In this document: positions 2,709 to 22,009 of the stretch, piece by piece
Numbering within the stretch: the stretch's first letter is position 1
Layout: each line of letters starts with the position of its first letter
NCBI GenBank assembly: GCA_010202845.1
Contig: CP047921.1
Span: forward strand, 1-32,000
Reading direction: 5' to 3'
DNA: 32,000 nt
Origin: Candidatus Saccharibacteria bacterium oral taxon 488
GTDB lineage: Bacteria > Patescibacteriota > Saccharimonadia > Saccharimonadales > Saccharimonadaceae
The notes under the pieces: generated by a model
Databases searched by the model: none
The model's input: only the letters and a program-made list of their open reading frames with translations
Told to the model about the DNA's origin: nothing
Translations under genes and position numbers: made by a program

Positions 2709-2709
2709 G

Positions 2710-4851
2710 CTAGTTGAGCGATCGACCATCTTGAGTAATAGTAATTCGTCGATTATTATCGTAATCAATAGTGATATTGTAGGCTAATTTATCCTCGACG
2801 GTAATAGTAAACGATAGTGTATTTTTTCCTGTTGATGTATCGCGTGTAATATTTTTTATCGTTGTTTGCGTGGCGATGCGCGATAGCCTATGGTCATAAG
2901 AATAATCACTCATGATTAGCTTTTCAATGTAGTCAGTGTCATTGCCGGTTAGTTGGTCGGATAATGAATTGCCGTACTGATCCTTTTGGCCGCTCCAGTT
3001 GACAACCAGATGCGGACTTCGTAGTCCACGCATTCGCGAAAAGTCATCATTACAGCCAAAATAACCGTATATTAGCTGATCGGTTGGTAAACATGAAACG
3101 GTTGTGCCATATTGATACTGAGCATCATCGTCAAGATTGGTCTTTTGTGACCACGTATATTCAACGAGATACGACTGCTGTAGGCTTTTAATATCAACAA
3201 TGAAGTTAACAGTGTGGATATCTTTTGCTTGATCATGAGTTTGCTTAAACGACCCGTCGCGGATAAGGATGTCTTTGATGGAGTTGTTTGGTAAATCACC
3301 CGTGTAGTTGTTGCGGATGGTAGTATATAATGCGTGACGAATTGTTTCGAGGGTTTTAGCGTCGGTCGGTTTACCATTTGTATATGTACTGAGATTTTCG
3401 ATATGCATTTCTCCACCAAGAGGGTTGCGTAGCAGTAGTATATAAGCAACCGTAGTGATAATAACAACACCAATAAACCCCAAGATAATGAAAATTAGTT
3501 TTTTATTATAGTGCAACATTACCGCCACCTCTACTTGTATTTGCTCCAACATAGCTCGCCACTGCTGACATATCAACTTCTGGTAGGCAAACTCATCCGG
3601 AAGATGTCCGAGCCAAGTTTTTGGATCATTAACCTTACCCGTAAGGATAAATCCAGATCCGCCACCTCGTTGCGTGCCATCACCGCGGCCCTTACCTGAA
3701 TTACCACAACTTGCGTGGCCAACGATGACATTATCGCCCTGAATGCCGAGGACAACTCCGGTGTGACCATAGCGTCCACCAGACCAACTAAACACAGCGC
3801 CGACTTTTGGTGTTTTACCGGTCGGTAGCTTTCGAGCATTTCTTAAGTGCTTAACAACGTGTTCGCCATTACCTGTGGTGCCGAGGTTTTTTGTTGAAGT
3901 AAATTTTTCAAGGAAGAATACAGAGAACGACACACAGTTTGATCCCCCACCATTACAAGTATTCCACAAGTAGTCACCCATAGCTTTGCGGCTTTCATTA
4001 TTTTTATTTTCGCCGTAATTCATCATGAATTTCTTCGCTTGCTCTTCGTTGAGACCGCCTTCGGAGATGGTGCCGCCTCCACCTCCACTACCGTCACTAC
4101 AGTTAGTGGCAGCACCAGAAGCGGCAGCGGCCGCGCTAGACGGATCTGGTTCCCAACTCATAGCTTTCATGGTATAAGCTACGCGAACTATAGTCTGTGG
4201 AATGCCAGCACCAAAAAATTTCTTTACCATAATAACAGCAGCAGCTGCGGCGTTGCCTGATGCTACCATCTCAGCTAACACGTTTTTACGTGAAGTTGGT
4301 GCAAGGTTCTGGAGTTGCCACCAGACGATAGCTAGTTGCACCTCGAGACTGGTAACATCACCCTGGACGCCAGCCTGCTGTTGCCAGTAGAGGACGGCTA
4401 CGCCAGGGTCCCATTGGGCGATTCCCCAGGCATCGCCCATACCAGCCGGTTTACTCGGGTTCCACGGGTGATACTTACCGCCGGCCTTGAGCGGATTTGG
4501 CTCGGAGCCTTTATTTTGACGAAGAATTGGGTTACCTTTTGACTCCTGATATAAATTACCAACGATTGCTGCTGCAACAAATTTTGGCGCACCTTTGGAT
4601 ATAAAGTAATTAAATGCTTTCTTTAGATTATCTTCGCCGACTAGCTCGCCTGCCGCCCCACTCGCTGACTGTGCGGCATTTGGTGAACAGTTTGTATCCT
4701 CAGAATTATTGCTAAAAAGAATGTTGTTGTCTTCAAATGTTGCCCGCAGCTGATCGGTATTTAACTCGGCAAATACTGGTGAACTCCCAAAAAGAAGCGA
4801 AATGATTGATATAATAACAGCGACTCTTTGAAAGGCTAATTTTCGTTCCAT
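2710..4851 (-). CDS. Secreted/membrane cell-wall hydrolase: tail-lysozyme-like domain + CHAP domain, fused to a TM helix and a C-terminal beta-rich domain (VirB1/PrgK-type T4SS hydrolase candidate)
   Basis: 713 aa. Signal peptide ends ...SSPVFA/ELN. AAAIVGNLYQESKGNP...GIAQWDP resembles phage-tail-lysozyme-type muramidase (~4207-4626). CHAP-like signature has Cys in SNCVSFSVFF and His in GRYGHTGVVLGIQGDNVIVGH (~3690-3970). An internal TM helix LIFIILGFIGVVIITTVAYILLL follows Met445 (ATG at 3519-3517). It is the last gene of the T4SS-like operon. Confidence 0.85.
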   Translation of the reverse strand: MERKLAFQRVAVIISIISLLFGSSPVFAELNTDQLRATFEDNNILFSNNSEDTNCSPNAAQSASGAAGELVGEDNLKKAFNYFISKGAPKFVAAAIVGNLYQESKGNPILRQNKGSEPNPLKAGGKYHPWNPSKPAGMGDAWGIAQWDPGVAVLYWQQQAGVQGDVTSLEVQLAIVWWQLQNLAPTSRKNVLAEMVASGNAAAAAVIMVKKFFGAGIPQTIVRVAYTMKAMSWEPDPSSAAAAASGAATNCSDGSGGGGGTISEGGLNEEQAKKFMMNYGENKNNESRKAMGDYLWNTCNGGGSNCVSFSVFFLEKFTSTKNLGTTGNGEHVVKHLRNARKLPTGKTPKVGAVFSWSGGRYGHTGVVLGIQGDNVIVGHASCGNSGKGRGDGTQRGGGSGFILTGKVNDPKTWLGHLPDEFAYQKLICQQWRAMLEQIQVEVAVMLHYNKKLIFIILGFIGVVIITTVAYILLLRNPLGGEMHIENLSTYTNGKPTDAKTLETIRHALYTTIRNNYTGDLPNNSIKDILIRDGSFKQTHDQAKDIHTVNFIVDIKSLQQSYLVEYTWSQKTNLDDDAQYQYGTTVSCLPTDQLIYGYFGCNDDFSRMRGLRSPHLVVNWSGQKDQYGNSLSDQLTGNDTDYIEKLIMSDYSYDHRLSRIATQTTIKNITRDTSTGKNTLSFTITVEDKLAYNITIDYDNNRRITITQDGRSLN

Positions 4852-5315
4852 AATTTTCTCGCTCGCTCTCTTGCGTTATCTGGTAATGTGTTACCGCTGG
4901 TTGTCTGCCACGCCTCTTTGCCGGTTGAGTATGCGATGAGCTGCAAATTGCCGTGACCATCTTTCTTTAATATGACATATAATGTGCGCGATGGGTTGTT
5001 GGTCGCAATATTGGCGGCAATTGCTTTCAGAAAAATCCACTCATTTTCGAAGTCAATTTTTTCGAGAAATGTTTGTCGCGGTGTTGTCGTAACTCGCAGG
5101 TCAGCAAAGGCAGCGGAGGCTGATTCGCGCAACGTTTTTTCTGGGATTGTGAGGTTTTTGGTTGACATTGGATTTAGCGGGGTGTTGTTGTGGACAACAA
5201 CCAAGACAATGGCGGCTATTAGCACGATCACTGCCACGCATAACCCGGCCATAATTATCAACGACCGCTTATCGTCACGTGGTTGCCGGGAGTAATAATT
5301 CATGTTATCTATCAC
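4836..5315 (-). CDS. Small bitopic membrane protein, T4SS-associated (VirB8/PrgL-sized candidate)
   Basis: 159 aa. GTG start forms a GTGA overlap with the upstream stop (5312-5315), with GGAG 11 nt upstream. One N-terminal TM helix (SLIIMAGLCVAVIVLIAAIVLVVV) and a ~110-aa extracytoplasmic domain. No recognizable motif. Confidence 0.6.
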   Translation of the reverse strand: MIDNMNYYSRQPRDDKRSLIIMAGLCVAVIVLIAAIVLVVVHNNTPLNPMSTKNLTIPEKTLRESASAAFADLRVTTTPRQTFLEKIDFENEWIFLKAIAANIATNNPSRTLYVILKKDGHGNLQLIAYSTGKEAWQTTSGNTLPDNARERARKLWNEN

Positions 5316-5812
5316 AATGTTACTGGCTCCCCGCTTGCGGTCCGAATGGTGACGGCGTTATCCGCGATAGTAAACTGTACAGCATACGCGGCGGTGTTCT
5401 TAACGGTCACGGTGAATGATATTACCTTTTCGTTAAAAACCACATTAGTGATCGTCCCAGACACAAGGGCATCAGAGGTCACATGTTTACTTACGTAGTG
5501 GCGAAGAATTGCTACAACGAGCGAATTTTGGGTGTCATCATTGATGAATGCGGCTAGTGTTTTATTGGCACTATTCTTCGTATCCCACCCACTGAGGACT
5601 AACTGCTGTGTGGTTGGCTGGCCACTGCCACCGGTTGGTCCCTCGTACTGCCCACCTCCCGACCGGGTAGAGCTATCATTAGATGACTGCGGCGGAGTCG
5701 ATGGGTTGGTTGGTGGTAGCAGCAGAATGACGACAACGACCGAGGCGGAGAGTATGATGAATGATAACGTAGCGATAATTGCTGTTTTGTGTGCTAAAAG
5801 AAACTCTCTCAC
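5312..5812 (-). CDS. Small bitopic membrane protein, T4SS-associated (VirB8/PrgL-sized candidate)
   Basis: Longest ORF runs to the ATG at 5854 (180 aa). GTG at 5812 is preferred: GGAGGG lies 8 nt upstream and it forms a GTGA start/stop overlap with the 1068-aa gene (5809-5812). One TM helix (AIIATLSFIILSASVVVVILLL), a P/S/T-rich linker, then a beta-rich domain. Its C-terminus resembles the end of the 713-aa protein. Confidence 0.6.
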   Translation of the reverse strand: MREFLLAHKTAIIATLSFIILSASVVVVILLLPPTNPSTPPQSSNDSSTRSGGGQYEGPTGGSGQPTTQQLVLSGWDTKNSANKTLAAFINDDTQNSLVVAILRHYVSKHVTSDALVSGTITNVVFNEKVISFTVTVKNTAAYAVQFTIADNAVTIRTASGEPVTL

Positions 5813-9015: not shown

Positions 9016-9030
9016 ATGCCTCCAATTATA

Positions 9031-10893
9031 CTACACTGCCCCGTACCCGCCGAGCGGCGTTTCTGATGGTAGTTGGTGTCGAGAGATCGGCGAGGTGTTG
9101 ATGAGTTCGTATTCGGTATCACTGGCCTGAATCTGGATGTGAACGTGGTTTTGTCCGGCAAAGAATAGCCCCTGCCCCACCGGGAAATTGGCGAGGCGTT
9201 TTTGCTCCTCCTCGGTTAGTTTGAAGACACTGGAAAGGACATCAACGGCGCTGGTTGACTGCTTGAGCAGCAGCTGCATCGACGAGTTAGCGACAATGGC
9301 TCGGCCCATCTTGCTACCCATAAAGTCCTCGACGTCCTGGGTGATGGTCGTGAGACCGAGCTGGTATTTGCGGGCACGCTTGGCGAGAGAAAATAGGAAG
9401 TTGGCTGAGTCGTCGTAGCGCATCAGCTGCCACGCCTCATCGACGATGAGCATGCGCCGTTTCTGGTCGGTACGCGTAATATTCCAGATGTGATTGAGCA
9501 CAATATACATGGCGATCGGCCGCAGTTCGTCCTCGAGGTCACGGATATTAAAGACCACCATGGTGTTATTGATATCAATATTTGATTGCTGGCTAAAGAT
9601 ACCGGCGAAAGTACCGGAGGTAAATTTGCGCAGCCGCTGAGCGAGGCTTGGCCCGGTGCCGCCCATATGAAGCAGCGTATCGTAGAGGTCGGCGATAGTT
9701 GGCGGTGTCGAGTGATGTGTCAACGGGTCAGCGGTGATGCCGACGCGGGCGTAGGTGTCGATCAGCGCCTGGTCAATATCAGCCTCTTCAGCGGCTGTCA
9801 GTCCAGCGATAATCTGCCCGCCCGCCGTCGTCTGTGAGCCACCCAGCATCTGCCGCAACAGTCCATGCAGCGTCACCAAATTCGCCCTCAGTGCATCGTC
9901 CGCCTCATCAGTATCAATCACTCGCGGCAGATCAAACGGATTGATACGAGTATCACTATTGAGGCTCAGTCGAATATAGCTACCGCCGACGGCGTCGGAT
10001 AATTTCTGGTATTCGTTTTCTGGGTCGATAATCACGATGTCTGAACCAAGCATCATGCTGCGCAGCGCCTCTAGCTTCACGGTAAACGACTTACCAGCAC
10101 CAGATTTAGCGAACACTACCATGTTGGCATTCTCGAGGGAAAAGCGGTCAAAAATCACCAGACCATTATTGTGCATATTGATACCATATAACACACCTTT
10201 GCCGTCGGTCAGGTCGGCCGAAGTAAACGGAAAGCTGGTAGAAATGGCGCCGGTATTCATGTTACGGCGAACCTGGAGCTGGTCGGTTAGCTGCGGAATG
10301 GTGCTATTGAGGCCCTGCTCTTGTTGGGCCGAGGCAACCTTAGAGAATACCAGCTGCTGGCCAAAAATTGTCTCGATCTTGTGCTGGATAAAGTTGAGTT
10401 CATCAATACTGTCGGCATAAATCGTGATGTAAAGGCCAAAGCGGAAGAACTTTTCCGAGCCGATCTGTAGCTGGTTGCGCAGTTCCTCGGCATCCTGTAA
10501 TGCCGCTTCCATCGCTGGGTCGCGCACCTTGCCCTTCTCAGAATTAATGCTGAGGCTAGCCTCGAGCTGAGTCACTTTCTTGCGTAAGTTGTTGAGCACC
10601 ACCTGGGTGTCAACTGGATAAATGAACATGCTAATATCTAGCACCTCGTCGATGTTGATCACCGAGCTGAGCCAACCGGTGTATAACTCGCGCGGATAGC
10701 CGTAGACGTACATGGTGCGCCCATACTTTGAACCGAGGCGGAAGTGGTCGGATTTGAGCTCGAGACTGCTCGGGGCGATGAAGTCACGCAGGGTTCTCAC
10801 ACCGGTGAGAAAAGCCTGCTCAACCTCGGCCTGCTCGCGGGCCCGCTGTTGGGCGGCGATATCAATGGCGTCCAGCTTCTTTTTTCTAGCCAT
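9031..10893 (-). CDS. virB4: VirB4/TrbE/PrgJ-family type IV secretion ATPase
   Basis: Walker A is VVFAKSGAGKSFTV, Walker B is RRMLIVDEAW, followed by TTITQDVEDF. N-terminal GRTMYVYGYPRELYTGWLSSV is typical of Gram-positive VirB4 homologs. Longest ORF starts at 10944. The ATG at 10893 is preferred because GGAGGAG lies 6 nt upstream and it overlaps the upstream stop by only 8 nt. Confidence 0.9.
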   Translation of the reverse strand: MARKKKLDAIDIAAQQRAREQAEVEQAFLTGVRTLRDFIAPSSLELKSDHFRLGSKYGRTMYVYGYPRELYTGWLSSVINIDEVLDISMFIYPVDTQVVLNNLRKKVTQLEASLSINSEKGKVRDPAMEAALQDAEELRNQLQIGSEKFFRFGLYITIYADSIDELNFIQHKIETIFGQQLVFSKVASAQQEQGLNSTIPQLTDQLQVRRNMNTGAISTSFPFTSADLTDGKGVLYGINMHNNGLVIFDRFSLENANMVVFAKSGAGKSFTVKLEALRSMMLGSDIVIIDPENEYQKLSDAVGGSYIRLSLNSDTRINPFDLPRVIDTDEADDALRANLVTLHGLLRQMLGGSQTTAGGQIIAGLTAAEEADIDQALIDTYARVGITADPLTHHSTPPTIADLYDTLLHMGGTGPSLAQRLRKFTSGTFAGIFSQQSNIDINNTMVVFNIRDLEDELRPIAMYIVLNHIWNITRTDQKRRMLIVDEAWQLMRYDDSANFLFSLAKRARKYQLGLTTITQDVEDFMGSKMGRAIVANSSMQLLLKQSTSAVDVLSSVFKLTEEEQKRLANFPVGQGLFFAGQNHVHIQIQASDTEYELINTSPISRHQLPSETPLGGYGAV

Positions 10894-11959
10894 GTCGTAC
10901 TCCTCCATATCCATGTGGCGATTCGCCTCGTCCCTTGCGGACATAGGTCGTCGCTAGTTCATCGGCGCCAACGCTCAATGGTTGTTGCGGTGCCACGTCA
11001 GGGTTGTATGAACTGTAGAATAATTCGCCCAGCTGTTTGGTATTAAGCTGCGCGCTCTTTACGCCCATCTGAAACAGCCCGCTCATTACTGAATCAACTC
11101 GGTTCTTGATTTCATCCTTGGCCTTTTCGTAGGCGGTCTGCTCGATCTTGGTGACGGTGTTGTCTTTCTTGCCGCCGAAGAAGCTGTCGAACAGACCCTT
11201 GGCCTGCTGCTTGATAACTTGCATGTCGCCGCTCTGATAATACGGCACAACGATATAAAAATCCTTGTCCATAATATTGGCTTCTTGGGCGAGGACATCG
11301 ATGAAGTTGATATAGTCATCCATCAGCACGTTCAGGAGCATATTGTCTTGGTTGCGGCGGATGTCAATCAGGCGGTCGATATACGGCCCGATGTCAACGC
11401 GACGCGAGCGAATGAGCACTTGAACCGGAAAATATAACGAATTAAGGAAGTTTTGGTAGCTAAACTCAATTCCTTCACGCTCGCGGCCACTCATCAGATC
11501 GAAGTTGATTGACTGACATTGAACAATCGCCCGAAAGCTGCCGTCATTCATGATAATCATATTCTCGCGCATCTCAGAAAATAGCAGCGTGTTCTGGGTG
11601 CTGGTCGGGCCTTTTTGTTGAGGTTTTGCCTGACTGGCCGGCTGCTTGGCGGGCTGTTGCAGGGCTGGTTGTGGCTGGTTGGACTCGGGTGCGGGCGGCA
11701 AGTTGGGGGTCGGTTGTGCCGCGGGTTGCGTGCTTGGCGTCGGCTGGGTTGGCGTTTGGGGTAACTGCTGCGGCAGTGGGCTGAATTGATCAGGATACTG
11801 GGCGTACGGTGAGGTTGGTTCTGCGGAGACTGGGTCAGGCCCAGAGGCAATGACCCCCGGCATGGTCGGCGGATTTGACGGCGCACCAAACTGTGGTGCA
11901 GCGGCTGCATCCGGTGGATAGTGATATGGTTGCTGTTGCTGATCTGGTTGCATAGACAT
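10886..11959 (-). CDS. P/Q-rich protein with C-terminal globular domain (possible VirB4 N-domain-like), T4SS-associated
   Basis: 357 aa. The first ~125 aa are Pro/Gln/Thr low complexity (QPTPSTQPAAQPTPNLPPAPESNQPQPALQQPAKQP). The C-terminal ~230 aa are ordered (MIIMNDGSFRAIVQCQSINFDLMSGREREGIEFSYQNFLNSL...). It lies between the PrgI-like gene and virB4. Confidence 0.7.
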   Translation of the reverse strand: MSMQPDQQQQPYHYPPDAAAAPQFGAPSNPPTMPGVIASGPDPVSAEPTSPYAQYPDQFSPLPQQLPQTPTQPTPSTQPAAQPTPNLPPAPESNQPQPALQQPAKQPASQAKPQQKGPTSTQNTLLFSEMRENMIIMNDGSFRAIVQCQSINFDLMSGREREGIEFSYQNFLNSLYFPVQVLIRSRRVDIGPYIDRLIDIRRNQDNMLLNVLMDDYINFIDVLAQEANIMDKDFYIVVPYYQSGDMQVIKQQAKGLFDSFFGGKKDNTVTKIEQTAYEKAKDEIKNRVDSVMSGLFQMGVKSAQLNTKQLGELFYSSYNPDVAPQQPLSVGADELATTYVRKGRGESPHGYGGVRHG

Positions 11960-11964
11960 CCCAC

Positions 11965-12846
11965 CTAGTGAAGCGAAATCACGACTTCCTTATCATGTTC
12001 TTTTTGGATGCGACCGGCCTCTCGTTGGAGCGAGGCGACCGACAGATCGCTGTGATTACGCGCTAAGTCCATTATAGCAGGCGAGATGGGTGCTGTGCTA
12101 GGGGGCGCCTGGTCGGTGTGGGCCGTCGCGGTCGTCTGCTCGCTGATGGGCGTGATGATGGACTGCTGCATAGTTGGATAGGGGTCGAAGGTCGAGGGTT
12201 GCGGCGAGAGGGCTTGGTCGTCTTGGGTAGTCGGGGTGGTTTGGGCTCGCTGCATTTGCTGGACAATGTCATCATGACGCTTTTCGTCGGCCCGCTCAAT
12301 CAGTGTTTCAAAGGCACGGGCTGTCTTGCTGCTTGGGTCGAGCGGGTCTTGGGCGGTTTGGGCCTCGTTGTACCAATCCGCCTGCATCGAGCTGTTCATC
12401 ACCGAGCTGTTTGGATTATCGACACCGCGCACCGACCAACCGTGCGTGTCCACCAGCGTCGCCAGATATGACAGCCGGCGATTGACCTCGGCCTGGTCAT
12501 ACCCCTTGCCGTATTGCTTTTCCTCAACTCGCGGGGCGATCACCTCGACCATTCGCTCAATGCCATCGGCTCGCCACAGTCGCTGCTTGGGCTTGAGAAT
12601 GAACGAAATAACCGCTGCGAGGTAAACCTCCATCGGCTGATCCTTGCGCAGCGGCAAGGCTAACGCCCCAAAAAACAGCGCAACCGGCACCGGGATAATC
12701 GCCAGTGGCGGCAGCACCGAGAACAGCCCCCACGCCAGCGCAATCATACCGATCGCGACGATCAAGAAAATAAACTGCTTGAAACTAAACGGCCCGAGCA
12801 GCTTGTCTTCAGCTTCCACGTCCTGGGGAACTTTGTAGACGGCCAT
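11965..12846 (-). CDS. PrgI/VirB3-like T4SS membrane protein with long C-terminal extension
   Basis: 293 aa. The N-terminus YKVPQDVEAEDKLLGPFSFKQFIFLIVAIGMIALAWG, a second TM helix and MEVYLAAVISFILKPKQRLW fit the PrgI-family pattern as I recall it. It sits upstream of virB4, as in Gram-positive T4SS loci. Confidence 0.72.
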   Translation of the reverse strand: MAVYKVPQDVEAEDKLLGPFSFKQFIFLIVAIGMIALAWGLFSVLPPLAIIPVPVALFFGALALPLRKDQPMEVYLAAVISFILKPKQRLWRADGIERMVEVIAPRVEEKQYGKGYDQAEVNRRLSYLATLVDTHGWSVRGVDNPNSSVMNSSMQADWYNEAQTAQDPLDPSSKTARAFETLIERADEKRHDDIVQQMQRAQTTPTTQDDQALSPQPSTFDPYPTMQQSIITPISEQTTATAHTDQAPPSTAPISPAIMDLARNHSDLSVASLQREAGRIQKEHDKEVVISLH

Positions 12847-12870
12847 TGGGTATTATTATAGCAGATTAGC

Positions 12871-15501
12871 TTAGGTTTCTGTTGGCGGCAGATACGAAAG
12901 GGCCGCCTCCATTCGCTTAATTGCACCGATACTTTCGCCAATACGACCACTATATTGTGGAGTCGTCCGTACTTCATTTATTCGATCGCGCAGAATCTGA
13001 AGATGCTGTTGTGAAATTTGTCCTCGGAAGTTCGAATTTTCAATCATATCAGCCAGGGTGTTAAGATAGACGGCGTCTTGCGTGACCAGGCCTTCGGTCG
13101 ACAATTTATCCTCGCTAAGCGCCTTGATGGTCGTTTGGGTGATAAATTCTTGGCCAGACCACGGCATATTATTAATCTTAATCTTATTAGCAATTGAAGA
13201 TCCAATCCAGAACGGTCGTGCCGGGTTGTTCTTGAGAGCGTCGCCAGCTTCTTGGGCAAGGGCATCGTCAAGGTGGGCAAAGTCAAGCTGGCTGGTCAAC
13301 GACTTGATAGCCTTAATATTCTTACCGCCAAGAACACGACGAAGTGACGCAGCCTTGACATCCCTGGTAACGGTAATGCCTTTGACCTCGCTACCGATAG
13401 CACCAAGAGCCATATCTACCATGTCAAACTCATCGGCATTGTATCGATCAAGCAAGCGATTTGCGCTCTCGACGCCTTCGTTGTAGGCATTGCTGAGTGT
13501 TTGTTCTGCCATGGCAATCGCTCGATCGGCACCGCGACTGTCACCGAAGTATATTTGTTCGACTTGTCCAGCCAGATTGCGCATCGTCTCGTTTTCTTTC
13601 AGTTCATTTGCCCATCGATCATCGGCAACACGCTGCGATGAAGCGTTCTGCAGGCCCTGGAGAGCCACTTGCTGCGCCGCTCCTCGGGCACGCTCCAAGC
13701 TTTCTTGGAATGACGAAGACAACTCATTGGTCTGGGTAGGCTTGAGTGCCCGCATCGACTTATAATAAGTGTCAACCGCTCCCTTAGAAGCCTCAGCCTG
13801 CTCAGACCATGATTGTGCTTGTGCGTATCGGTCAAAGGTGGCGGAATTAGACATCAGATGATTGCCCCAAGCGGCCTCTAGCCGACCCTCGATAGCCTTT
13901 TTGTCTTCGTTAACCATCCGTCGGTATTGATCAATCTTAGCATAGGAATCAGTCCCCTTTCGTATAACATCAGATTGATCTTGCAACTCTTTGAGCCTAT
14001 CCTTACGATTTTGTGATGACTGCGCCAGCCTGCGTCGCCATGCCGTTGGGGTAAATTTGCTGTCTGGACGTTTGTTGAGTTTTTTGCGTTTCGTAATCTC
14101 GCTTTGCTCTTTTGCCCAGTTCTTAGATCGGTCGAATAATCCCTTACTGCGGTCATTGACGAGACCGGTGAATTTGCCAAGGAGTCCGCCGCCCAACTTG
14201 ATCATCAACGGTGTTAGGGCGAGTGGCGCGATCTGGACCGCCATACCGAGGATATACATCACTGCCCCGTTCGGGCCCGCGGCGTTTTGCATAATGACTG
14301 AGCCCGCCAGCTGTGCCCCACCGAAGGCTGCCGCAAACCCCGGGAAGAATATCAGCATCGTCAAGAAGATATCCTTCCACTTATCAAACCACTTTTCTGT
14401 GCCTGGCAACAAGTAAGCCACAAAAGCCAACGGCGAAATGATAATCAAAATAACGATCAACGCCTGACGGGCGGCCATAATGATAACAACGAGAAGGATA
14501 ACGAGTCCAATACCGCTCAAAAGTGGCACAATAAAAGGAAGTAGCTCGGCCCGCATGACGATTCCGGCAGCCAGCGCCGCACCGCCGGCGGCATCTCCCA
14601 AAATATGGAAGGTGACCTCTTGCCAGGTCATGGGTTCAGATGCTGGTGCAGATCCGCCCAGGGTGGCGACTGTGTTACGAATATTCATGAACATGTCTTG
14701 GAGTGCACTTCCGGCGATGTTTGACAGGTCGAGGAGTATGGCGCAGACGTGGAACGACAAATTGACTAGTACCGCCGCGACAATTAAGCGAGGCAACATC
14801 TTTTTGATGCCATAATTGGAGATGCCCATAGAAGTAACTTGTGAATAAATAATGACTATGAACATGACGATAAAGATACCGTTGGCGATGTTGCGAACGA
14901 TATTCCAGGCTAGAAAGATGCCACTGGTCTGATTACCCGTCTGAAGCGGCGGCACCACGAGAAAGCTTTTAAGCACCCCAAACATCCAGTCGATGGAGCT
15001 AGCTAACCACGCCGAAACGGGACAAAGGATCCAGCCGATACCGCCAGCAACTTCACACGAAAACGCAGAGTTTTGGCTCGGTGGGTCAATTGATAATGTG
15101 GTTGATTCTTTCTTTGTGTAAGTGTTTGGCGAAGTGTACGTGAATGTTGTTAGGGACACTGAGGTCATTGATCCGAGATCGCCTGTTGACGGAAAGTGAA
15201 TGACGCGGACGTCTTGATTATTGGCTACAGTTTTCTTTGACATGTAGACCACTTGGTCAGACCCTAAGTTGAGGGCTTTTAGTTTGTCGACGTCGGAAAC
15301 TCGCTCAAATGTCTCGTTGTCGTAGGATATTTTGCTACTATCCCACTTCGCGTCCGCCGCCAGCGCCTGGCCCGAGGTTACGACCGTACTCAAAAAAACA
15401 CTGACTAGGAGGCCCACCGCCAGCAATATAAACCATTGCAACCATCGCATTGACGATCGCCCTTGTGAACGTAACCACTCCATTACCAGCAATGGTAGCA
15501 T
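12871..15501 (-). CDS. VirB6/TrbL-like polytopic membrane protein, paralog B
   Basis: 876 aa. N-terminal signal/TM, a ~150-aa ectodomain, a multi-TM core (WNIVRNIANGIFIVMFIVIIYSQVTSMGISNYGIKKMLPRLIVAAVLVNLS...) and a ~400-aa hydrophilic C-terminal tail. The alternative start at Met18 (15450; MRWLQWFILLAVGLL...) gives a cleaner signal peptide. Confidence 0.8.
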   Translation of the reverse strand: MLPLLVMEWLRSQGRSSMRWLQWFILLAVGLLVSVFLSTVVTSGQALAADAKWDSSKISYDNETFERVSDVDKLKALNLGSDQVVYMSKKTVANNQDVRVIHFPSTGDLGSMTSVSLTTFTYTSPNTYTKKESTTLSIDPPSQNSAFSCEVAGGIGWILCPVSAWLASSIDWMFGVLKSFLVVPPLQTGNQTSGIFLAWNIVRNIANGIFIVMFIVIIYSQVTSMGISNYGIKKMLPRLIVAAVLVNLSFHVCAILLDLSNIAGSALQDMFMNIRNTVATLGGSAPASEPMTWQEVTFHILGDAAGGAALAAGIVMRAELLPFIVPLLSGIGLVILLVVIIMAARQALIVILIIISPLAFVAYLLPGTEKWFDKWKDIFLTMLIFFPGFAAAFGGAQLAGSVIMQNAAGPNGAVMYILGMAVQIAPLALTPLMIKLGGGLLGKFTGLVNDRSKGLFDRSKNWAKEQSEITKRKKLNKRPDSKFTPTAWRRRLAQSSQNRKDRLKELQDQSDVIRKGTDSYAKIDQYRRMVNEDKKAIEGRLEAAWGNHLMSNSATFDRYAQAQSWSEQAEASKGAVDTYYKSMRALKPTQTNELSSSFQESLERARGAAQQVALQGLQNASSQRVADDRWANELKENETMRNLAGQVEQIYFGDSRGADRAIAMAEQTLSNAYNEGVESANRLLDRYNADEFDMVDMALGAIGSEVKGITVTRDVKAASLRRVLGGKNIKAIKSLTSQLDFAHLDDALAQEAGDALKNNPARPFWIGSSIANKIKINNMPWSGQEFITQTTIKALSEDKLSTEGLVTQDAVYLNTLADMIENSNFRGQISQQHLQILRDRINEVRTTPQYSGRIGESIGAIKRMEAALSYLPPTET

Positions 15502-15526
15502 TTTTATAGAGAAAAGTCAATAGTTT

Positions 15527-18500
15527 CTAGCTGGTGGCAGGTGGATTATTGTTTCGATTATTGCGATTATTTTGATTATTTGGCGGTGCTGAAGGTGGGG
15601 ATTGTGGTGGAGCTGGCCCTCTGCCTGTTCCGGCAACGAATGTTCTCCCCGTCGGGGTGTCTGACGGAATTGCTTCGGTAATATTGTTTGACGGTGCAGT
15701 ATCGTGAGGTATTCTGATCTCATTAGTTCCTGTGCCGCCGTTTCGTATATTCTCAAACTCGGCACGAGTGCTGCCTGATATTGAAGTATTAACGCGCTTA
15801 TTATCCAGCAATGAGGCTGCCCGTTCGGCAGAAATACCAACCATCCTCTGGCTTCCCTTGGTAAACTCGGTTTCACCAGCAATCTTAACTGCACCAGATG
15901 CCTGTCGTGCCAGTTTTTCATCGCTTAATCCGTTAAGCCCCTGGGCGGTCAACTCAGCCATTTGTCGCTGGCTAAAGCTAACTGAATTTACACCATGTTG
16001 CTCCATTTGATCGATGGCGTTCGTACCCATCTCGAATAGCCCCGCGTGATACTCCTGCATATCGGTAAGCGTTTCTGCCATGCGGCGGTTACTAATAGTT
16101 CCGCCACTTTGGAGGTAATCATACATCTGCTGGGCGCCGTGTTTGCCGGTTGATGCGAGCTTTTTAGAAGCAACATACTTGAGCATTTCATTATCTCCTG
16201 CACCCCTCAGCGCAGCGGCGGCATCACCGTTGTACTGATAGTCGAGCATGCGCTTTGCTGTCTCGCGCTCTTCGTCATCAACGGCATCTTGACCTTCGGC
16301 AGCTAGCCTCCTACCCAAATCTCCTCCGATCCAGCGATTGTTTGTAAGATCACTTTCATTGAGCGCCTTGCTGCGTTCGGCGCTTGCATTTCTTCCAATC
16401 CAACGCATCTTGTCGAGAACTCCACTGCCCTTCCAGGCCCCGGCTCGTATAAGCTTTTTGCGGCGTGCTATTTGCTTCTTGCGAAAATCTTGCATCTGAC
16501 CAAGTCGTGAATTGGCATACCTATCTTTTGCCCAGTTTTTGGCGCTGCCACCGAGGCCACCGAGGCGACCGCCGGCGTTGTTGATGTGCTGGCCGATTGC
16601 CCCAGCGACATCAATGGCTTTTTTGAGGACACTCCACACGGCGATGAGCGGCAGAACTTTGATGAGCTCGCCAACAATCTGCATGACCGTATTGTCGGCA
16701 TCTGTAGCCCCTGCTTTAACAATTGATCCCGCCAATATACCGCCACCGAATAGCAACCCAACGATTGGAAAGACCATGAGTAGCCCCACAAAGGTTGAGC
16801 GCCATTTACTAAAGAATTTTTCGGTGTTTGGTAGCAGAAAGGCAACAAAAGCCAACGGTGAGATAACGATAAGGATGACGATGAGAGCCTTGCGGGCGAT
16901 CAACAGGGCGGCAATAGTCACCATGACGACCAGTCCGGAAACAAGCGCTCCGATTAGAACCGCAAGAGCGAGAACTGCGGCCGTAGCCCCAGCGAGGACG
17001 GTTAATGCTATGCCTCCCCAGGTTTCGCCTCCCTGTCCTGACTTTAGGACACTATTAGCAGCACTAATACCGTCACCGATACCACCCAGGCCTGCTCGCA
17101 GGCCGTAGCCGAGGATATTAGACAGGTCAACGGCAATTTGACAGATGTAAATTGATAAGTTCACCAAGATTGCGGCGATGATGAGCCGTGGCAGCATCTT
17201 TTTGATGCCGTAGTTCGAGATGCCAAAGCCGGTGAGCTGAGAGATGATGATTGCCAGAAACATAATGATGAACGCACCATTGGCAATGTTACGCATAATT
17301 CCCCAGGCTGCCTGTACTTCACCCCCAGAGGCAAGATCCGGCTCAATCTTTAGAAAGTTGTCAGCGATCATGGCGAAAGCCGCGTCTGCTATACGCGCCA
17401 TAAAATTAATCACCGGGCAGACGAGCCAGCCGAGCTCCTTAACGGCGCAGTCGGGTCTGTCGCTACTACTATTCTCGCTCTGACCGGATGGGGGGTCGGC
17501 GGTTATATTAGAAAGAGAGCTTTTTATATCATCTTCAGAATACCCTGATTGTTTTTTCAGACAATCAACATATTCACTAGAGTTTGCCACGTTGCCATTT
17601 GATGGCATCTTGTCCTTACAAGCGTTCATCCAGCTGTCAACCTGGCTTTCACAAATTTGTTGTGCAGGTCCGCCACCACGTGACTGGACACACCTCTTTA
17701 TGAGGGCGCTACGAATAGCCTTACGGGTATTTTCAGTAGATTCGGTTTTTGCCAACTGTGCCGCCGCTCCAGCGTTATCTGAAGCCCACTTGGCTATTTC
17801 ACCGCAAGACATTCCGGAGTCTTTTGGTGGCTTATAGGGTTGCTTAAGGCCGCTGTAGAACAGTGGCATAAGACCCTTAAGCCTTGTTTCTTTTGGGATA
17901 TAGAAGAGTCCTTCGGCCGCCGTACCATCAGTTAAAGCAACATTTACCCGTGTATTGAACTCGTGTTTTAAGAGGTCTTTTATATTGCTTGGGGCGCCTT
18001 CGCCGCTCGTAAATCCTCGCCACTCGGCCTTACAGCCAGTTTCTTGGTTTGATAAAAGTACTGCCATGGCCATGGAATAATTGACGAGTGCTGAGTCAAA
18101 TTTGAGGCTTTTGCCGGTCTTTTTTTCGAGGACCCCAACGGCATATGTACCCCTGTCCTTTGGTATATTCCATCGATTGCCACTGTATTCTGGTTTGTCT
18201 ATATTGCCGAGACAATCTAGATTAGCGTTATCTCTCCATTCTCCCTTGAGAGCACAAAACATCTCAGTAAAAGAGCTATAACCAAAGATCTCTCGTGCTG
18301 CCGAAGTCATCTCTTTACAATCAAACTTTCCGTCTTTGGGATCGACCACACCGCTGACGATAGGGGTATTGCTGCCAATATTCCAGTCGCCACTCGCAAC
18401 GTTCTGTGGAGTTAAGTTATCACCAAACCCTTTAGTTCCTCGGGCTTCGATACAGCCACCTATGCCAAGGGCAATGGCGCGTTGCTTGACTTGGGTAAGG

Positions 18501-18649
18501 TATGGCGAATAGCTAAGTTGTGTTCGAGCTGCGTTAGCAGTCGGCGACAGCGCAAAAAACGTCATGAGCATCGGAACGACTAATAGTGCGGCAAGTCCGA
18601 TTAGAACGGGGCGAATACGTTTATGCGAGGTTTTCTTTTGCGCAAGCAT
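15527..18649 (-). CDS. VirB6/TrbL-like polytopic membrane protein, paralog A (first gene of operon)
   Basis: 1040 aa. Signal peptide ends ...LSPTANA. A ~400-aa Cys-containing ectodomain is followed by a multi-TM core nearly identical in motifs to paralog B (WGIMRNIANGAFIIMFLAIIISQLTGFGISNYGIKKMLPRLIIAAILVNLS). The long hydrophilic tail ends in PPSAPPNNQNNRNNRNNNPP. Confidence 0.8.
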   Translation of the reverse strand: MLAQKKTSHKRIRPVLIGLAALLVVPMLMTFFALSPTANAARTQLSYSPYLTQVKQRAIALGIGGCIEARGTKGFGDNLTPQNVASGDWNIGSNTPIVSGVVDPKDGKFDCKEMTSAAREIFGYSSFTEMFCALKGEWRDNANLDCLGNIDKPEYSGNRWNIPKDRGTYAVGVLEKKTGKSLKFDSALVNYSMAMAVLLSNQETGCKAEWRGFTSGEGAPSNIKDLLKHEFNTRVNVALTDGTAAEGLFYIPKETRLKGLMPLFYSGLKQPYKPPKDSGMSCGEIAKWASDNAGAAAQLAKTESTENTRKAIRSALIKRCVQSRGGGPAQQICESQVDSWMNACKDKMPSNGNVANSSEYVDCLKKQSGYSEDDIKSSLSNITADPPSGQSENSSSDRPDCAVKELGWLVCPVINFMARIADAAFAMIADNFLKIEPDLASGGEVQAAWGIMRNIANGAFIIMFLAIIISQLTGFGISNYGIKKMLPRLIIAAILVNLSIYICQIAVDLSNILGYGLRAGLGGIGDGISAANSVLKSGQGGETWGGIALTVLAGATAAVLALAVLIGALVSGLVVMVTIAALLIARKALIVILIVISPLAFVAFLLPNTEKFFSKWRSTFVGLLMVFPIVGLLFGGGILAGSIVKAGATDADNTVMQIVGELIKVLPLIAVWSVLKKAIDVAGAIGQHINNAGGRLGGLGGSAKNWAKDRYANSRLGQMQDFRKKQIARRKKLIRAGAWKGSGVLDKMRWIGRNASAERSKALNESDLTNNRWIGGDLGRRLAAEGQDAVDDEERETAKRMLDYQYNGDAAAALRGAGDNEMLKYVASKKLASTGKHGAQQMYDYLQSGGTISNRRMAETLTDMQEYHAGLFEMGTNAIDQMEQHGVNSVSFSQRQMAELTAQGLNGLSDEKLARQASGAVKIAGETEFTKGSQRMVGISAERAASLLDNKRVNTSISGSTRAEFENIRNGGTGTNEIRIPHDTAPSNNITEAIPSDTPTGRTFVAGTGRGPAPPQSPPSAPPNNQNNRNNRNNNPPATS
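15544..15582 (-). repeat. In-frame short tandem repeat (GATTATT units, 9-12 nt period) encoding NNQNNRNNRNNN at the C-terminus of VirB6-like paralog A
   Basis: The unit gattatt recurs at 15544, 15556, 15565 and 15574 on the plus strand. Confidence 0.7.
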
Positions 18650-21559: not shown

Positions 21560-21576
21560 GAAAAAAGGAGAAATGT

Positions 21577-21951: not shown

Positions 21952-22009
21952 CTAAATGATGATAGAATAACAGCTGAAATGACATTAACCCTAAACAAGG
22001 AAGCAATAA

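What the first reader, a model, noticed from the sequence alone, without database searches (positions are those of the whole stretch)
2710..18649. Origin-proximal ~16 kb minimized type IV secretion-like operon with no coupling protein, relaxase or VirB11 in view
Seen in sequence: nine co-directional minus-strand ORFs with tight junctions, including GTGA start/stop overlaps at 5809-5812 and 5312-5315, an 8-nt overlap at 10886-10893, and 6-25 nt gaps elsewhere. The VirB4-type ATPase has Walker A FAKSGAGKSFTV and Walker B MLIVDEAW. The PrgI/VirB3-like protein starts VPQDVEAEDKLLGPFSFKQFIFLIVA. The set also includes two VirB6-like polytopic proteins, two wall-hydrolase candidates and small bitopic proteins. 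Established knowledge: the order VirB6, VirB3-like, VirB4, hydrolase, VirB8-like mirrors Gram-positive conjugative loci of the prgH-I-J-K-L type. Those loci also carry a VirD4-type coupling ATPase and a relaxase. Neither of those, nor an integrase or VirB11, is recognizable in this 32 kb. Inference: this may be a non-conjugative machine for effector delivery, host-cell contact or wall penetration, or DNA/nutrient uptake, in what looks like a reduced-genome episymbiont. I recall that T4SS-like genes have been linked to host-dependent growth in Saccharibacteria, but I cannot verify that here. The operon sits directly beside the putative origin. If oriC is in the dnaA-dnaN spacer, it is transcribed head-on to the rightward replication fork. 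Its final stop codon (2710-2712) is 1 nt from the dnaN stop (2706-2708), with no terminator between them.
Basis: partly seen in the sequence, partly recalled or inferred. Interest (0 to 1): 0.8.

Follow-up and report, generated by a model that had tools for sequence, protein, structure and literature searches.

The report
Saccharibacteria's known essential type IV secretion locus
This is the chromosomal, origin-adjacent type IV secretion gene cluster that tiny epibiotic Saccharibacteria need to grow on their host bacteria; it is already published, but its wall-cutting enzyme genes turn out to be swapped wholesale between close relatives.

Summary
In detail: a tight minus-strand operon (2710-18649) encodes two VirB6-like proteins, PrgI/VirB3, VirB4 and two wall hydrolases. 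No relaxase, coupling protein or integrase lies in the 32 kb.

Corrections:
- VirB4 is split into a TrsD-like gene plus the ATPase, in all 46 relatives checked.
- The 713-aa last ORF is two genes fused by a 1-nt deletion.

The window is a Nanosynbacter-type Saccharibacterium. The locus is gene-for-gene syntenic with Southlakia epibionticum SEML1_0001-0021. There, Tn-seq showed the T4SS is essential for epibiotic growth (Wang 2023). The missing relaxase, the TrsD gene, the pilin arrays and the dnaA proximity were described by Quinonero-Coronel 2025. The finding is therefore already known.

Not found in the literature searched:
- VirB4 is more conserved than DnaA (0 replaced against 138 silent codons versus a relative).
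- The 6-kb block between virB4 and dnaN is replaced by unalignable alleles carrying different peptidoglycan-peptidase domains (C39-like, M23, VanY, NlpC/P60-like), in some relatives preceded by a nuclease/phosphatase (EEP) domain.
- At least three block types occur beside identical VirB4.

This suggests the enzymes target the host wall.

The parts
18660..18688 (-). Promoter-like site (TTGAAA-17-TACTAT with a TG extension) about 10 nt upstream of the first start codon. It overlaps a 17-bp-stem hairpin (18682-18721) that probably terminates the upstream lipoprotein gene.
   Evidence: consensus match only, so function is inferred
15527..18649 (-). VirB6/TrbL-like polytopic protein 'a' (1040 aa): signal/anchor helix, ~400-aa Cys-rich ectodomain, at least 5 TM helices, ~360-aa C-terminal domain
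   Evidence: Pfam TrbL E 1.1e-4 (22.5 bits, cut-off 25.9); orthologues carry PF19590 TrbL_3; TM scan
12871..15501 (-). VirB6-like polytopic protein 'b' (876 aa), a paralogue of 'a' in the membrane core. Its C-terminal ~350 aa are exchanged in one same-species relative (L005).
   Evidence: BLASTP 39% over 374 aa, E 1e-58; TM scan; mosaic shown
11965..12846 (-). PrgI / VirB3-like membrane protein (293 aa)
   Evidence: PF12666 E 5.4e-12, 46.5 bits against cut-off 27; present in 46/46 relatives
10886..11959 (-). TrsD/TraD-like protein (357 aa): P/Q-rich N-terminus followed by a domain resembling the N-terminal ~145 residues of full-length VirB4
   Evidence: NCBIfam TrsD E 6.5e-5, VirB4 N-terminal positions 1-121 of CD1110; PF26593 TraC-like on orthologues; collinear weak match to the N-terminus of an 804-aa VirB4
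9031..10893 (-). VirB4 ATPase (620 aa) lacking its own N-terminal domain (matches model positions 145-751). It overlaps the TrsD stop by 8 nt behind a GGAGG motif.
   Evidence: NF045971 E 2.8e-115, 386 bits above cut-off 325; junction conserved in all relatives; 0 replaced against 138 silent codons versus L003
5809..9015 (-). Bitopic 1068-aa protein: cytoplasmic N-terminus, TM helix 118-136, ~700-aa mainly helical ectodomain with no detectable match in the PDB or BFVD (the only libraries available), and a C-terminal Peptidase_C39_2 domain (879-1018)
5312..5812 (-). Small bitopic protein (166 aa, GTG start at 5812)
   Evidence: no family match apart from a weak DUF7743 hit
4836..5315 (-). Small bitopic protein (159 aa)
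   Evidence: no family match
3584..4851 (-). Secreted wall hydrolase: Phage_lysozyme2 (74-219) plus CHAP (303-377). In this window a 1-nt deletion near 3583 shifts its 3' end into the frame of the next gene.
   Evidence: domains; deletion relative to five independent assemblies; the fused 713-aa product is not on record
2710..3519 (-). Bitopic 269-aa protein (own ATG at 3519 behind AGAGGTGG): TM helix 6-30 plus two alpha/beta domains. It is a possible VirB8/TcpC-like component.
   Evidence: AF2 model pLDDT 74; Foldseek gave only weak hits, including TcpC 3ub1 at E 0.09; a separate gene in relatives
18758..19693 (-). 311-aa lipoprotein with an RR motif and an LVSC lipobox, lying between the operon and the pilin array. 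It occupies a position comparable to non-essential SEML1_0012 (TAT signal, NTF2-like fold); homology is not tested. It is 31-96% identical among contigs with identical VirB4.
20066..22390 (+). Six tandem VirB2/TrbC-like T4SS pilin genes (99-152 aa; five with an N-terminal signal-like segment plus two hydrophobic helices, the 99-aa third gene with only the two helices; 20-45% identical to each other), transcribed divergently from the operon
   Evidence: PF18895 E 1.7e-6 to 1.4e-14, all above the cut-off
26052..26537 (-). Seventh, unlinked T4SS pilin gene (probable ATG at 26459)
   Evidence: PF18895 E 1.2e-8
1348..1607 (.). dnaA-dnaN spacer holding 5 of the window's 16 TnTCCAC DnaA-box-like sites (0.13 expected) and an 83% A+T stretch at 1556-1607. 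It is a candidate oriC and defines the origin-proximal context.

Best explanation
The locus is the vertically inherited, chromosomal type IV secretion system of Saccharibacteria, here in a Nanosynbacter-type genome. It is the orthologue of S. epibionticum SEML1_0004-0019. It descends from monoderm (MPF-FATA, CD1110-type) conjugation machinery that lost its relaxase and coupling-protein module and became a housekeeping organelle of the epibiotic lifestyle.

Shown here: gene content, synteny, the split VirB4, the pilin repertoire, the absence of DNA-processing genes nearby, the extreme purifying selection on VirB4, and the hypervariable hydrolase block.

Inferred mechanism: TrsD plus VirB4 dock on PrgI/VirB3 and the two extended VirB6 proteins to form the membrane platform. 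Because no coupling protein is needed, the main task of VirB4 would be to extract the Sec-inserted VirB2-like pilins from the membrane and polymerise them into a tube. The membrane-anchored peptidase (5809-9015) and the lysozyme/CHAP enzyme (3584-4851) would cut peptidoglycan so that the tube can cross the epibiont's wall and, I argue, the host's wall. The tube then mediates the exchange that growth depends on.

The direction of transport is not settled. I lean towards uptake of host material (about 0.4) over effector export (about 0.35), and over a role in contact or adhesion only (about 0.15).
For: Taxon and conservation: VirB4 is 84-100% identical in 80 Saccharibacteria species genomes. TrsD, PrgI and VirB6 are present in 46/46 full-flank loci, dnaN in 45/46, dnaA in 43/46 and pilins in 34/46.

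Synteny with the ML1 locus, where every gene except 0012 is called essential at the later Tn-seq time points.

Published description of the same architecture, relaxase absence and dnaA proximity.

Housekeeping-grade selection: VirB4 shows 0 replaced against 138 silent codons versus L003, where DnaA shows 14/124 and DnaN 20/137. Across the order, VirB4 is 85-93% identical at the amino-acid level, against 62-80% for DnaA.

The nearest conjugative relatives (29-38% identity) carry a T4CP and relaxase-type genes within a few genes of VirB4 (immediately downstream in Embleya, upstream in Brevibacillus), and these are absent here.

Host-directed hydrolases: the 6-kb block between virB4 and dnaN is unalignable between relatives whose flanks are 85% identical at the DNA level. 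Three block types sit beside 100%-identical VirB4. The C-terminal enzyme on one scaffold family varies: M23 in 73 tails, VanY in 43, C39_2 in 5, NlpC/P60-like in 4, unknown in the rest.

A 2026 preprint reports tubular structures, possibly T4SS pili, at a parasite-host interface in another member of the phylum.
Against: Only 32 kb of this genome is visible. T4CP homologues are common elsewhere in Patescibacteria genomes (5,713 in 2,918 genomes), so absence from the window is not absence from the genome.

No substrate, pilus or transport direction has been demonstrated for any Patescibacteria T4SS.

The hydrolases could serve only self-wall remodelling (the VirB1 role), with their diversity reflecting relaxed constraint or phage or immune pressure.

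Pilus formation by a monoderm T4SS is unprecedented, and here it is inferred only from pilin homology.

Essentiality was measured in a different genus.
Confidence: 0.8

Rival explanations
1. It is a dedicated import machine. This would be a Ced- or ComB-like T4SS that pulls host nucleic acids or other macromolecules into the auxotrophic epibiont through the pilus.
For: The composition of VirB2-like pilins, VirB6-like proteins and a VirB4-type ATPase, with no T4CP or relaxase, matches the archaeal Ced DNA importer (PMC9905601). Saccharibacteria generally lack nucleotide, amino-acid and lipid synthesis. A 2026 preprint argues for host-RNA feeding in a cultivated relative and links VirB4 to macromolecule transfer.
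Against: A comEC deletion abolishes competence but not viability in S. epibionticum, so DNA uptake through ComEC is not the essential function. The window's VirB4 is not a CedB member (42.7 bits against a cut-off of 700). No import has been demonstrated.
Confidence: 0.3
2. It is an effector or toxin export system independent of a coupling protein. This would resemble Bordetella Ptl, delivering Sec-exported proteins, possibly the variable hydrolases themselves, onto or into the host cell.
For: T4CP-less exporters exist, such as Ptl and Brucella VirB. McLean 2020 drew the Ptl analogy for the TM7x array. The polymorphic C-terminal enzyme domains on a conserved N-terminal module resemble polymorphic effectors.
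Against: The variable enzymes carry N-terminal TM or signal segments and are probably Sec substrates anchored in the epibiont membrane. The 'secreted array' of McLean 2020 is now recognised as VirB2-type pilins. No effector has been identified.
Confidence: 0.25
3. It is an ordinary conjugative element (ICE) whose relaxase, coupling protein and oriT lie outside the window.
For: The VirB4 belongs to the conjugative CD1110 family. T4CP homologues occur elsewhere in many Patescibacteria genomes, and 109 relaxases were found in 103 genomes.
Against: The locus has the same chromosomal position beside dnaA-dnaN in 45/46 species genomes. It has no integrase, repeats or compositional break. VirB4 evolves more slowly than DnaA. 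In S. epibionticum the distant t4cp is non-essential while the T4SS genes are essential. Relaxases are absent from most Patescibacteria genomes.
Confidence: 0.03
4. The hydrolase block only remodels the epibiont's own wall for machine assembly (the classical VirB1/PrgK role). Its diversity would then be neutral or driven by phage or antibody pressure, not by host-wall chemistry.
For: Gram-positive T4SSs encode large wall hydrolases next to VirB4, for example the 817-aa NlpC/P60 protein in the Brevibacillus plasmid. PrgK and TraG are further examples from established knowledge (not checked here). The enzymes are membrane-anchored in the epibiont.
Against: Relatives with identical VirB4 and DnaA 96-97% identical carry non-homologous ectodomains and different peptidase families. 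That is hard to reconcile with a single unchanged self substrate. The peptide-cleaving domains vary far more than the glycan-cleaving lysozyme domain (Phage_lysozyme2 in 15/23), and peptide stems and bridges are the part of peptidoglycan that differs among Actinobacteria (established knowledge).
Confidence: 0.3

Closest known systems
Southlakia epibionticum ML1 T4SS cluster SEML1_0004-0019 (Wang et al. 2023, Cell, PMC10633639)
   Same: The order and orientation match: dnaA, dnaN, then on the minus strand small exported proteins, a lysozyme/Cys-peptidase, a ~1100-aa protein with a C-terminal peptidase, VirB4, TrsD-like, PrgI and two VirB6-like proteins. Six divergent pilin genes follow, then Hsp20 and ComF (searches compared). 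No relaxase or coupling protein lies in the cluster.
   Different: The window has no recF between dnaN and the cluster. Its large protein ends in a C39-like peptidase rather than a DD-peptidase fold. It has two small bitopic genes where ML1 has PEGA/prealbumin-like proteins. The TAT lipoprotein lies upstream of both VirB6 genes rather than between them. The window has a seventh pilin gene elsewhere, and its hydrolase is frameshift-fused to the last gene.
Patescibacteria-clade T4SS as surveyed by Quinonero-Coronel et al. 2025 (PMC12102498), and the TM7x T4SS region of McLean et al. 2020 (PMC7427843)
   Same: An MPF-FATA-derived VirB4, TrsD as the most frequent partner, PrgI/VirB3, VirB6, VirB2 arrays of 2-11 genes at ~25% identity, relaxase absent, T4CP usually distant, and dnaA/dnaN nearby.
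   Different: Those surveys do not report, as far as I could find, the allelic replacement of the block between virB4 and dnaN, the domain swapping on the large protein, or the exceptional conservation of VirB4 relative to DnaA and DnaN.
Gram-positive conjugative T4SSs (pCF10 prgH-L; pGO1/pSK41 trsC-E; CD1110/CD1115-type modules such as the Embleya and Brevibacillus plasmids)
   Same: The gene order is VirB6-like, PrgI, (TrsD), VirB4, then a large wall hydrolase and small bitopic proteins. VirB4 is 29-38% identical.
   Different: The conjugative relatives carry a T4CP and relaxase or MobC genes close to VirB4 and have no VirB2 pilins. Their VirB4 is usually full length (804 aa in Brevibacillus). 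The Brevibacillus 817-aa NlpC/P60 protein, the only one tested, is not homologous to the window's scaffold (hhalign probability 0.6%).
Crenarchaeal Ced DNA-import system (Beltran et al. 2023, PMC9905601)
   Same: The component logic is the same: VirB2-like pilins, a VirB6-like membrane protein and a VirB4/HerA-type ATPase, with no relaxase or T4CP. It is chromosomal and non-conjugative, and it shows that such a set can import.
   Different: It is not a family member, because CedB and CedD models score far below their cut-offs (42.7 against 700 and 25.2 against 600). Ced is UV-induced and non-essential and carries no wall-hydrolase block.
Bordetella Ptl and Brucella VirB (T4SSs without a coupling protein)
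   Same: They work without a T4CP, and their substrates reach the machine after Sec export.
   Different: They are diderm MPF-T systems with VirB7/9/10 outer-membrane cores. They share no close homology and no synteny with this locus.

Membership tests
Patescibacteria/Saccharibacteria chromosomal T4SS (Wang 2023; Quinonero-Coronel 2025) | VirB4 of the monoderm (MPF-FATA, CD1110) type | tested here: met
   NF045971 E 2.8e-115, 386.3 bits against curated cut-off 325; 84-100% identical to VirB4 of 80 Saccharibacteria genomes
Patescibacteria/Saccharibacteria chromosomal T4SS (Wang 2023; Quinonero-Coronel 2025) | TrsD-like gene adjacent to virB4 | tested here: met
   NF041427 TrsD E 6.5e-5, below its curated cut-off; PF26593 TraC-like on orthologues; immediately upstream with coupled junction in every locus whose junction could be examined (45 of 46; L077 coordinates were offset)
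Patescibacteria/Saccharibacteria chromosomal T4SS (Wang 2023; Quinonero-Coronel 2025) | PrgI/VirB3-like and VirB6-like membrane components | tested here: met
   PF12666 46.5 bits against 27. TrbL 22.5 bits against 25.9, which is sub-threshold, but TrbL_3 is recorded on orthologues. 6-7 TM helices and a paralogue at E 1e-58.
Patescibacteria/Saccharibacteria chromosomal T4SS (Wang 2023; Quinonero-Coronel 2025) | Array of sequence-divergent VirB2-like pilin genes in the cluster | tested here: met
   Six tandem genes plus one remote gene, all above the PF18895 cut-off; 20-45% pairwise identity
Patescibacteria/Saccharibacteria chromosomal T4SS (Wang 2023; Quinonero-Coronel 2025) | No relaxase or coupling protein in the neighbourhood; chromosomal site next to dnaA/dnaN | tested here: met
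   Pfam and NCBIfam scans of the window's main ORFs; dnaN convergent in 45/46 relatives; synteny with SEML1_0001-0021
Patescibacteria/Saccharibacteria chromosomal T4SS (Wang 2023; Quinonero-Coronel 2025) | Required for growth on the host bacterium | not testable with these tools
   Shown by Tn-seq only for S. epibionticum ML1. The strong purifying selection seen here is consistent with it but is not a test.
Conjugative T4SS / integrative conjugative element | Relaxase and type IV coupling protein belonging to the element | tested here: not met
   None in the 32 kb. The rest of the genome could not be scanned. The nearest conjugative relatives carry both within a few genes of VirB4.
Conjugative T4SS / integrative conjugative element | Mobile-element hallmarks: integrase, variable insertion site, compositional break | tested here: not met
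   No integrase. GC content is similar to the flanks. The chromosomal position is fixed in 45/46 species. VirB4 is more conserved than DnaA.
Conjugative T4SS / integrative conjugative element | oriT | not testable with these tools
   No relaxase family is available to define a cognate nic site.
VirB8-like (NTF2-like) T4SS components (PrgL, TraM, TcpC) | Bitopic topology with an extracytoplasmic NTF2-like alpha+beta domain | tested here: inconclusive
VirB1-type T4SS wall hydrolases | Peptidoglycan-hydrolase domains encoded next to virB4 | tested here: met
   Peptidase_C39_2 E 4e-9; Phage_lysozyme2 E 1e-19 plus CHAP E 3e-8. There is no SLT domain in this window, so these are functional analogues rather than VirB1 orthologues.
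Ced DNA-import system | CedB/CedD-type ATPase | tested here: not met
   NF041017 42.7 bits against 700; NF053655 25.2 bits against 600. The resemblance is in component logic only.

The most novel reading that the evidence does not exclude
The block between virB4 and dnaN may be a replaceable host-specificity cassette. It comprises a large anchored peptidase, small bitopic proteins, a lysozyme-type hydrolase and a two-domain bitopic protein. Deeply divergent alleles, with non-homologous ectodomains and different peptidoglycan-peptidase families (in some relatives joined by an added EEP nuclease/phosphatase domain), would be exchanged by recombination through the ultra-conserved flanks in naturally competent Saccharibacteria. 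Each allele would be matched to the cell-wall chemotype of a particular actinobacterial host. The cassette would thus set host range much as a phage receptor-binding or lysin module does. An orphan copy of the same three-gene module in a Microbacterium genome hints at traffic with the host phylum.
Probability: 0.3. Interest if true: 0.7.

Novelty: already known. Interest (0 to 1): 0.33.

Why it matters
The T4SS is one of the few machines shown to be indispensable for the epibiotic life of Patescibacteria, a very large and mostly uncultured part of bacterial diversity. What it transports is an open question. The finding as written adds nothing beyond Wang 2023 and Quinonero-Coronel 2025.

The comparative results obtained here do sharpen the question. 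The motor (VirB4) is frozen by selection. The wall-cutting enzymes next to it are swapped as whole alleles between close relatives. This points to the host envelope as their target and gives a concrete, genetically tractable candidate for what determines which host a Saccharibacterium can grow on.

Tried and rejected
- **Frameshifted VirB4.** I first suspected that the 8-nt overlap between the 357-aa ORF and VirB4 was a frameshift in a single virB4 gene. I rejected this because the two-gene junction (TAATG or ATGGCTAG behind GGAGG) is conserved in every relative.
- **Homology to a conjugative hydrolase.** The scaffold is not related to the 817-aa NlpC/P60 protein that follows VirB4 in a Brevibacillus plasmid (probability 0.6%).
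- **One scaffold with swappable tips.** I initially read all of the ~1000-aa proteins after VirB4 this way. That holds within the window's family. The L003/L004/L086 type, however, shares only the first ~180 residues with it, so there are at least two ectodomain classes.
- **VirB8-like assignment.** It remains inconclusive for the 269-aa protein, and sequence searches found nothing for the lipoprotein.
- **Microbacterium scaffold homologue.** It has no match in the plasmid or phage collections and only one other homologue in the word-indexed search.
- **Embleya XF1762-family gene.** This gene, which lies upstream of VirB4, is not TrsD-like.
- **Literature.** Searches for prior reports of hydrolase-cassette variation found none. 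This is weak evidence of novelty, because subscription journals are not covered.
- **GC skew.** Over 32 kb it is too noisy to locate the origin.

Full report
**Observation.** The minus strand between 2710 and 18649 carries an uninterrupted run of long ORFs.
- The junctions between successive genes are +25, +24, +5, -8, +15, -4, -4 and -16 nt.
- Terminator-like hairpins inside the run are at chance level (22 found, 20.8 expected).
- The only strong hairpin (18682-18721, 17 pairs) lies just upstream of the first gene. It overlaps a promoter-like TTGAAA-17-TACTAT site about 10 nt from the first ATG.

**Gene identities**, in order of transcription:
- A 1040-aa VirB6/TrbL-like protein. The TrbL hit is E 1e-4, below the cut-off, but orthologues carry TrbL_3.
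- An 876-aa paralogue of it, 39% identical over the polytopic core (E 1e-58).
- PrgI/VirB3-like (PF12666, E 5e-12).
- A 357-aa protein with a P/Q-rich head and a TrsD/TraD-like body. The body matches the first ~120-230 positions of full-length VirB4 models.
- A 620-aa VirB4 ATPase that matches positions 145-751 of the CD1110-family model (386 bits against a cut-off of 325).
- A 1068-aa bitopic protein ending in a Peptidase_C39_2 domain.
- Two small bitopic proteins.
- A 713-aa ORF with Phage_lysozyme2 and CHAP domains, followed by a second TM helix and a C-terminal region.

**Corrections.**
- VirB4 is split into two genes. This is not a frameshift, because all 46 relatives with full flanks have the TrsD-like gene ending at the VirB4 start behind a GGAGG motif.
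- The 713-aa ORF is an artefact of a single missing C near 3583. Five independent assemblies read TACCC or TATCC where the window reads TACC. In them the hydrolase (423-450 aa) and a 269-282-aa bitopic protein (376 aa by longest-ORF start in one locus) are separate, overlapping genes. The fused product is not on record anywhere. Biologically the operon has ten genes.
All are above the PF18895 cut-off and 20-45% identical to each other.
- The rest of the window is housekeeping: dnaA, dnaN, Hsp20, a ComF-like phosphoribosyltransferase, RlmH, a GDSL lipase, ValRS, FemAB, TsaD and five tRNAs. It contains no relaxase, VirD4 or integrase.

**Organism and conservation.** The VirB4 is 84-100% identical to that of 80 species-level Saccharibacteria/Nanosynbacter genomes. 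In the 46 loci with 10-kb flanks, TrsD, PrgI and VirB6 are always upstream. dnaN (45/46) and dnaA (43/46) are always downstream and convergent, and pilins are found in 34. In relatives, rnpA, yidC and jag lie on the far side of dnaA. The dnaA-dnaN spacer holds 5 of the window's 16 TnTCCAC sites (0.13 expected) and an 83% A+T stretch. The origin-proximal placement is therefore solid. The head-on orientation follows if the origin is at either side of dnaA. GC skew over 32 kb cannot confirm it, and most genes in the window are on the minus strand anyway.

**What is already known.**
- The locus is gene-for-gene syntenic with S. epibionticum ML1: dnaA 0001, dnaN 0002, (recF 0003), small exported proteins 0004-0005, lysozyme/Cys-peptidase 0006, a 1113-aa protein with a C-terminal DD-peptidase fold 0007, VirB4 0008, 0009, PrgI 0010, VirB6-like 0011 and 0013, a TAT-signal NTF2-like protein 0012, pilins 0014-0019, Hsp20 0020 and ComF 0021.
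- Every gene except 0012 was called essential in Tn-seq at the later time points. Wang et al. note the pilins and the lack of recognisable coupling and relaxase proteins.
- Quinonero-Coronel et al. 2025 describe across Patescibacteria the MPF-FATA ancestry, TrsD as the commonest partner, VirB2 arrays, the rarity of relaxases, the mostly distant T4CPs and the proximity to dnaA/dnaN.
- McLean et al. 2020 had already pointed out the region in TM7x, and a 2025 T4SS review features it.

**Comparison with conjugative relatives.** The closest plasmid-borne VirB4 proteins are 29-38% identical (Streptomyces, Embleya, Bacillales).
- In an Embleya plasmid the order is: large membrane protein, PrgI, small gene, VirB4, T4CP, relaxase-type protein, NlpC/P60.
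- In a Brevibacillus plasmid it is: MobC, relaxase, VirD4, PrgI, an 804-aa VirB4, an 817-aa NlpC/P60 protein.
- The window keeps the membrane and hydrolase parts, lacks the DNA-processing genes found near VirB4 in those plasmids (directly after it in Embleya), and has pilins that these relatives lack.

**New comparative results.**
- *VirB4 is under housekeeping-grade constraint.* Against L003 (flanks ~85% identical in DNA) it shows 138 silent and 0 replaced codons. DnaA shows 124/14 and DnaN 137/20. Across the order, VirB4 stays at 85-93% amino-acid identity, while DnaA falls to 62-80% and DnaN to 46-74%.
- *The block between virB4 and dnaN is hypervariable.* DNA homology to L003 and L004 stops exactly at the dnaN stop and resumes only in the first ~20-50 codons of the gene after virB4. 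The exact 620-aa VirB4 occurs in many metagenome assemblies with at least three different blocks:
 - Type I: large protein with C39_2, two small genes, Lys2+CHAP, 269-280 aa.
 - Type II: large protein with M23, Lys2+M23, 142 aa, 447 aa.
 - Type III: large protein with M23, 149 aa, a C39_2 protein, 174 aa.
- *Domain swapping within the window's large-protein family.* This family has 340 representatives at E up to 1e-3. An ~850-residue region is conserved, and the ~150-450-residue tail differs. Among 141 tails, 73 are M23 (about 11 of these preceded by an EEP nuclease/phosphatase domain), 43 VanY, 5 C39_2 and 4 NlpC/P60-like. The rest fall into at least two unrecognised types.
- *A second ectodomain class.* The type II/III large protein shares only its first ~180 residues (cytoplasmic head and TM) with that family (hhalign 90.6%) and is otherwise unalignable.
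- *The second hydrolase.* It keeps the lysozyme domain in 15 of 23 cases, but its partner domain varies among CHAP, M23, C39_2, M15, amidase, SLT, GH43, GH3 and EEP.
- *Mosaicism elsewhere.* The C-terminal 350 residues of VirB6b are replaced in a same-species relative. The lipoprotein ranges from 31 to 96% identity. VirB6a is 72-77% identical where VirB6b is 94-95%.
- *Structure.* An AlphaFold model of the scaffold is confident over ~140-800 and mostly helical, but matches nothing in the PDB or BFVD.

**Mechanism.** What is shown is the parts list, its fixed chromosomal position, the absence of DNA-processing genes nearby, the selection pattern, and (from the literature) essentiality in a sister genus.

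What I infer:
- TrsD supplies the missing VirB4 N-domain.
- The ATPase sits on PrgI and the two extended VirB6 proteins.
- Its main work is pilin extraction and polymerisation.
- The anchored peptidase and the lysozyme/CHAP enzyme open peptidoglycan for the tube.

The peptide-cleaving domains vary between relatives that otherwise share near-identical core proteins, and peptide stems and bridges are the variable part of actinobacterial walls. I therefore favour the host wall as at least one target of these enzymes. Transport direction is unresolved. The Ced importer shows that the same component logic can import. Ptl and Brucella VirB show that T4CP-less export exists. The viability of a comEC mutant rules out ComEC-dependent DNA uptake as the essential function.

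**Limits.**
- Only 32 kb of this genome could be examined.
- The VirB8-like status of the small proteins is undecided.
- The literature check for the cassette variation covers open-access papers only.

**Verdict.** The interest of the finding as given is low to moderate. The cassette polymorphism and the frozen VirB4 are the parts worth following up.

Noticed in passing
window 3575-3590 (minus strand), ORF 2710-4851: A single-base deletion in a C run (TACC here, TACCC or TATCC in five other assemblies) fuses the lysozyme/CHAP hydrolase to the next gene, giving a 713-aa ORF that is not found in any other record. It is either a real frameshift in this strain or a homopolymer sequencing error. 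The downstream gene keeps its own ATG (3519) and an AGAGGTGG motif.
   Followed up: yes
window 2709-8990; loci L003, L004, L085-L087: The ~6-kb block between virB4 and dnaN is replaced by unalignable sequence in relatives whose flanks are ~85% identical. The breakpoints fall at the dnaN stop and within the first ~20-50 codons of the gene after virB4. At least three block types occur beside a 100%-identical VirB4.
   Followed up: yes
window 5809-9015 and 340 database relatives (P0001-P0178): In the large anchored protein, an ~850-aa region with no match in the PDB or BFVD is conserved. Its C-terminal enzyme domain varies among M23, EEP+M23, VanY, C39_2, NlpC/P60-like and at least two unrecognised types. 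A second class of the protein shares only the first ~180 residues.
   Followed up: yes
window 9031-10893 compared with 1-1347 and 1608-2708: VirB4 is more conserved than DnaA and DnaN. It shows 0 replaced against 138 silent codons versus L003 (DnaA 14/124, DnaN 20/137). Across the order it is 85-93% identical at the amino-acid level, against 62-80% and 46-74%.
   Followed up: yes
L089 4268-8759 (Microbacterium sp. NPDC076895, GCA_040687115.1, contig JBFBMQ010000004.1): An actinobacterial genome (local GC 60-67%) carries an orphan three-gene module. Its parts are a 795-aa homologue of the scaffold without an enzyme tail (hhalign 99.1%, E 8e-19), a Lys2/CHAP-like hydrolase (E 1e-18) and a homologue of the 269-aa last gene (36% identity). 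No other T4SS gene lies within 8 kb, and the module is absent from the plasmid and phage collections. This may reflect gene traffic between the epibiont lineage and the host phylum.
   Followed up: partly
window 12871-13930; L005 5387-8020: In a same-species relative (95% DNA identity) the C-terminal ~350 residues of VirB6b are only 24-44% identical, while the rest of the protein is 94-100% identical. This looks like a recombinational domain replacement.
   Followed up: partly
window 18758-19693: The lipoprotein has an RR motif, an LVSC lipobox and a conserved SPSESPSASPSPSE linker, with a highly variable C-terminal domain (31-96% identity beside identical VirB4). Some alleles lack the twin arginine. 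It occupies a position comparable to non-essential SEML1_0012, which has an NTF2-like (TraM-like) fold; homology to it was not tested.
   Followed up: partly
window 18649-18690, 15501-15525, 12846-12870: The first three genes of the operon have no Shine-Dalgarno motif. They have TATAAT-like sequences immediately upstream of the ATG, which suggests leaderless or near-leaderless starts. Genes 5-7 and the last gene have GGAGG-type motifs.
   Followed up: no
window 1348-1607: Five DnaA-box-like TnTCCAC sites (0.13 expected) and an 83% A+T stretch lie in the dnaA-dnaN spacer. A 78-aa ORF called here in some public assemblies is probably spurious.
   Followed up: partly
window 24326-25382 and 19891-19968: The 318-aa ORF at 24326-25282 reads through tRNA-Ser genes (25096-25185 and 25209-25296). 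The real GDSL-lipase gene must start downstream of them. tRNA-Asp lies between the lipoprotein gene and the pilin array.
   Followed up: no
window 25490-26537: The seventh pilin gene overlaps the start of a 197-aa membrane protein of unknown function (25490-26083) on the same strand. This may be a second small pilin-associated unit.
   Followed up: no
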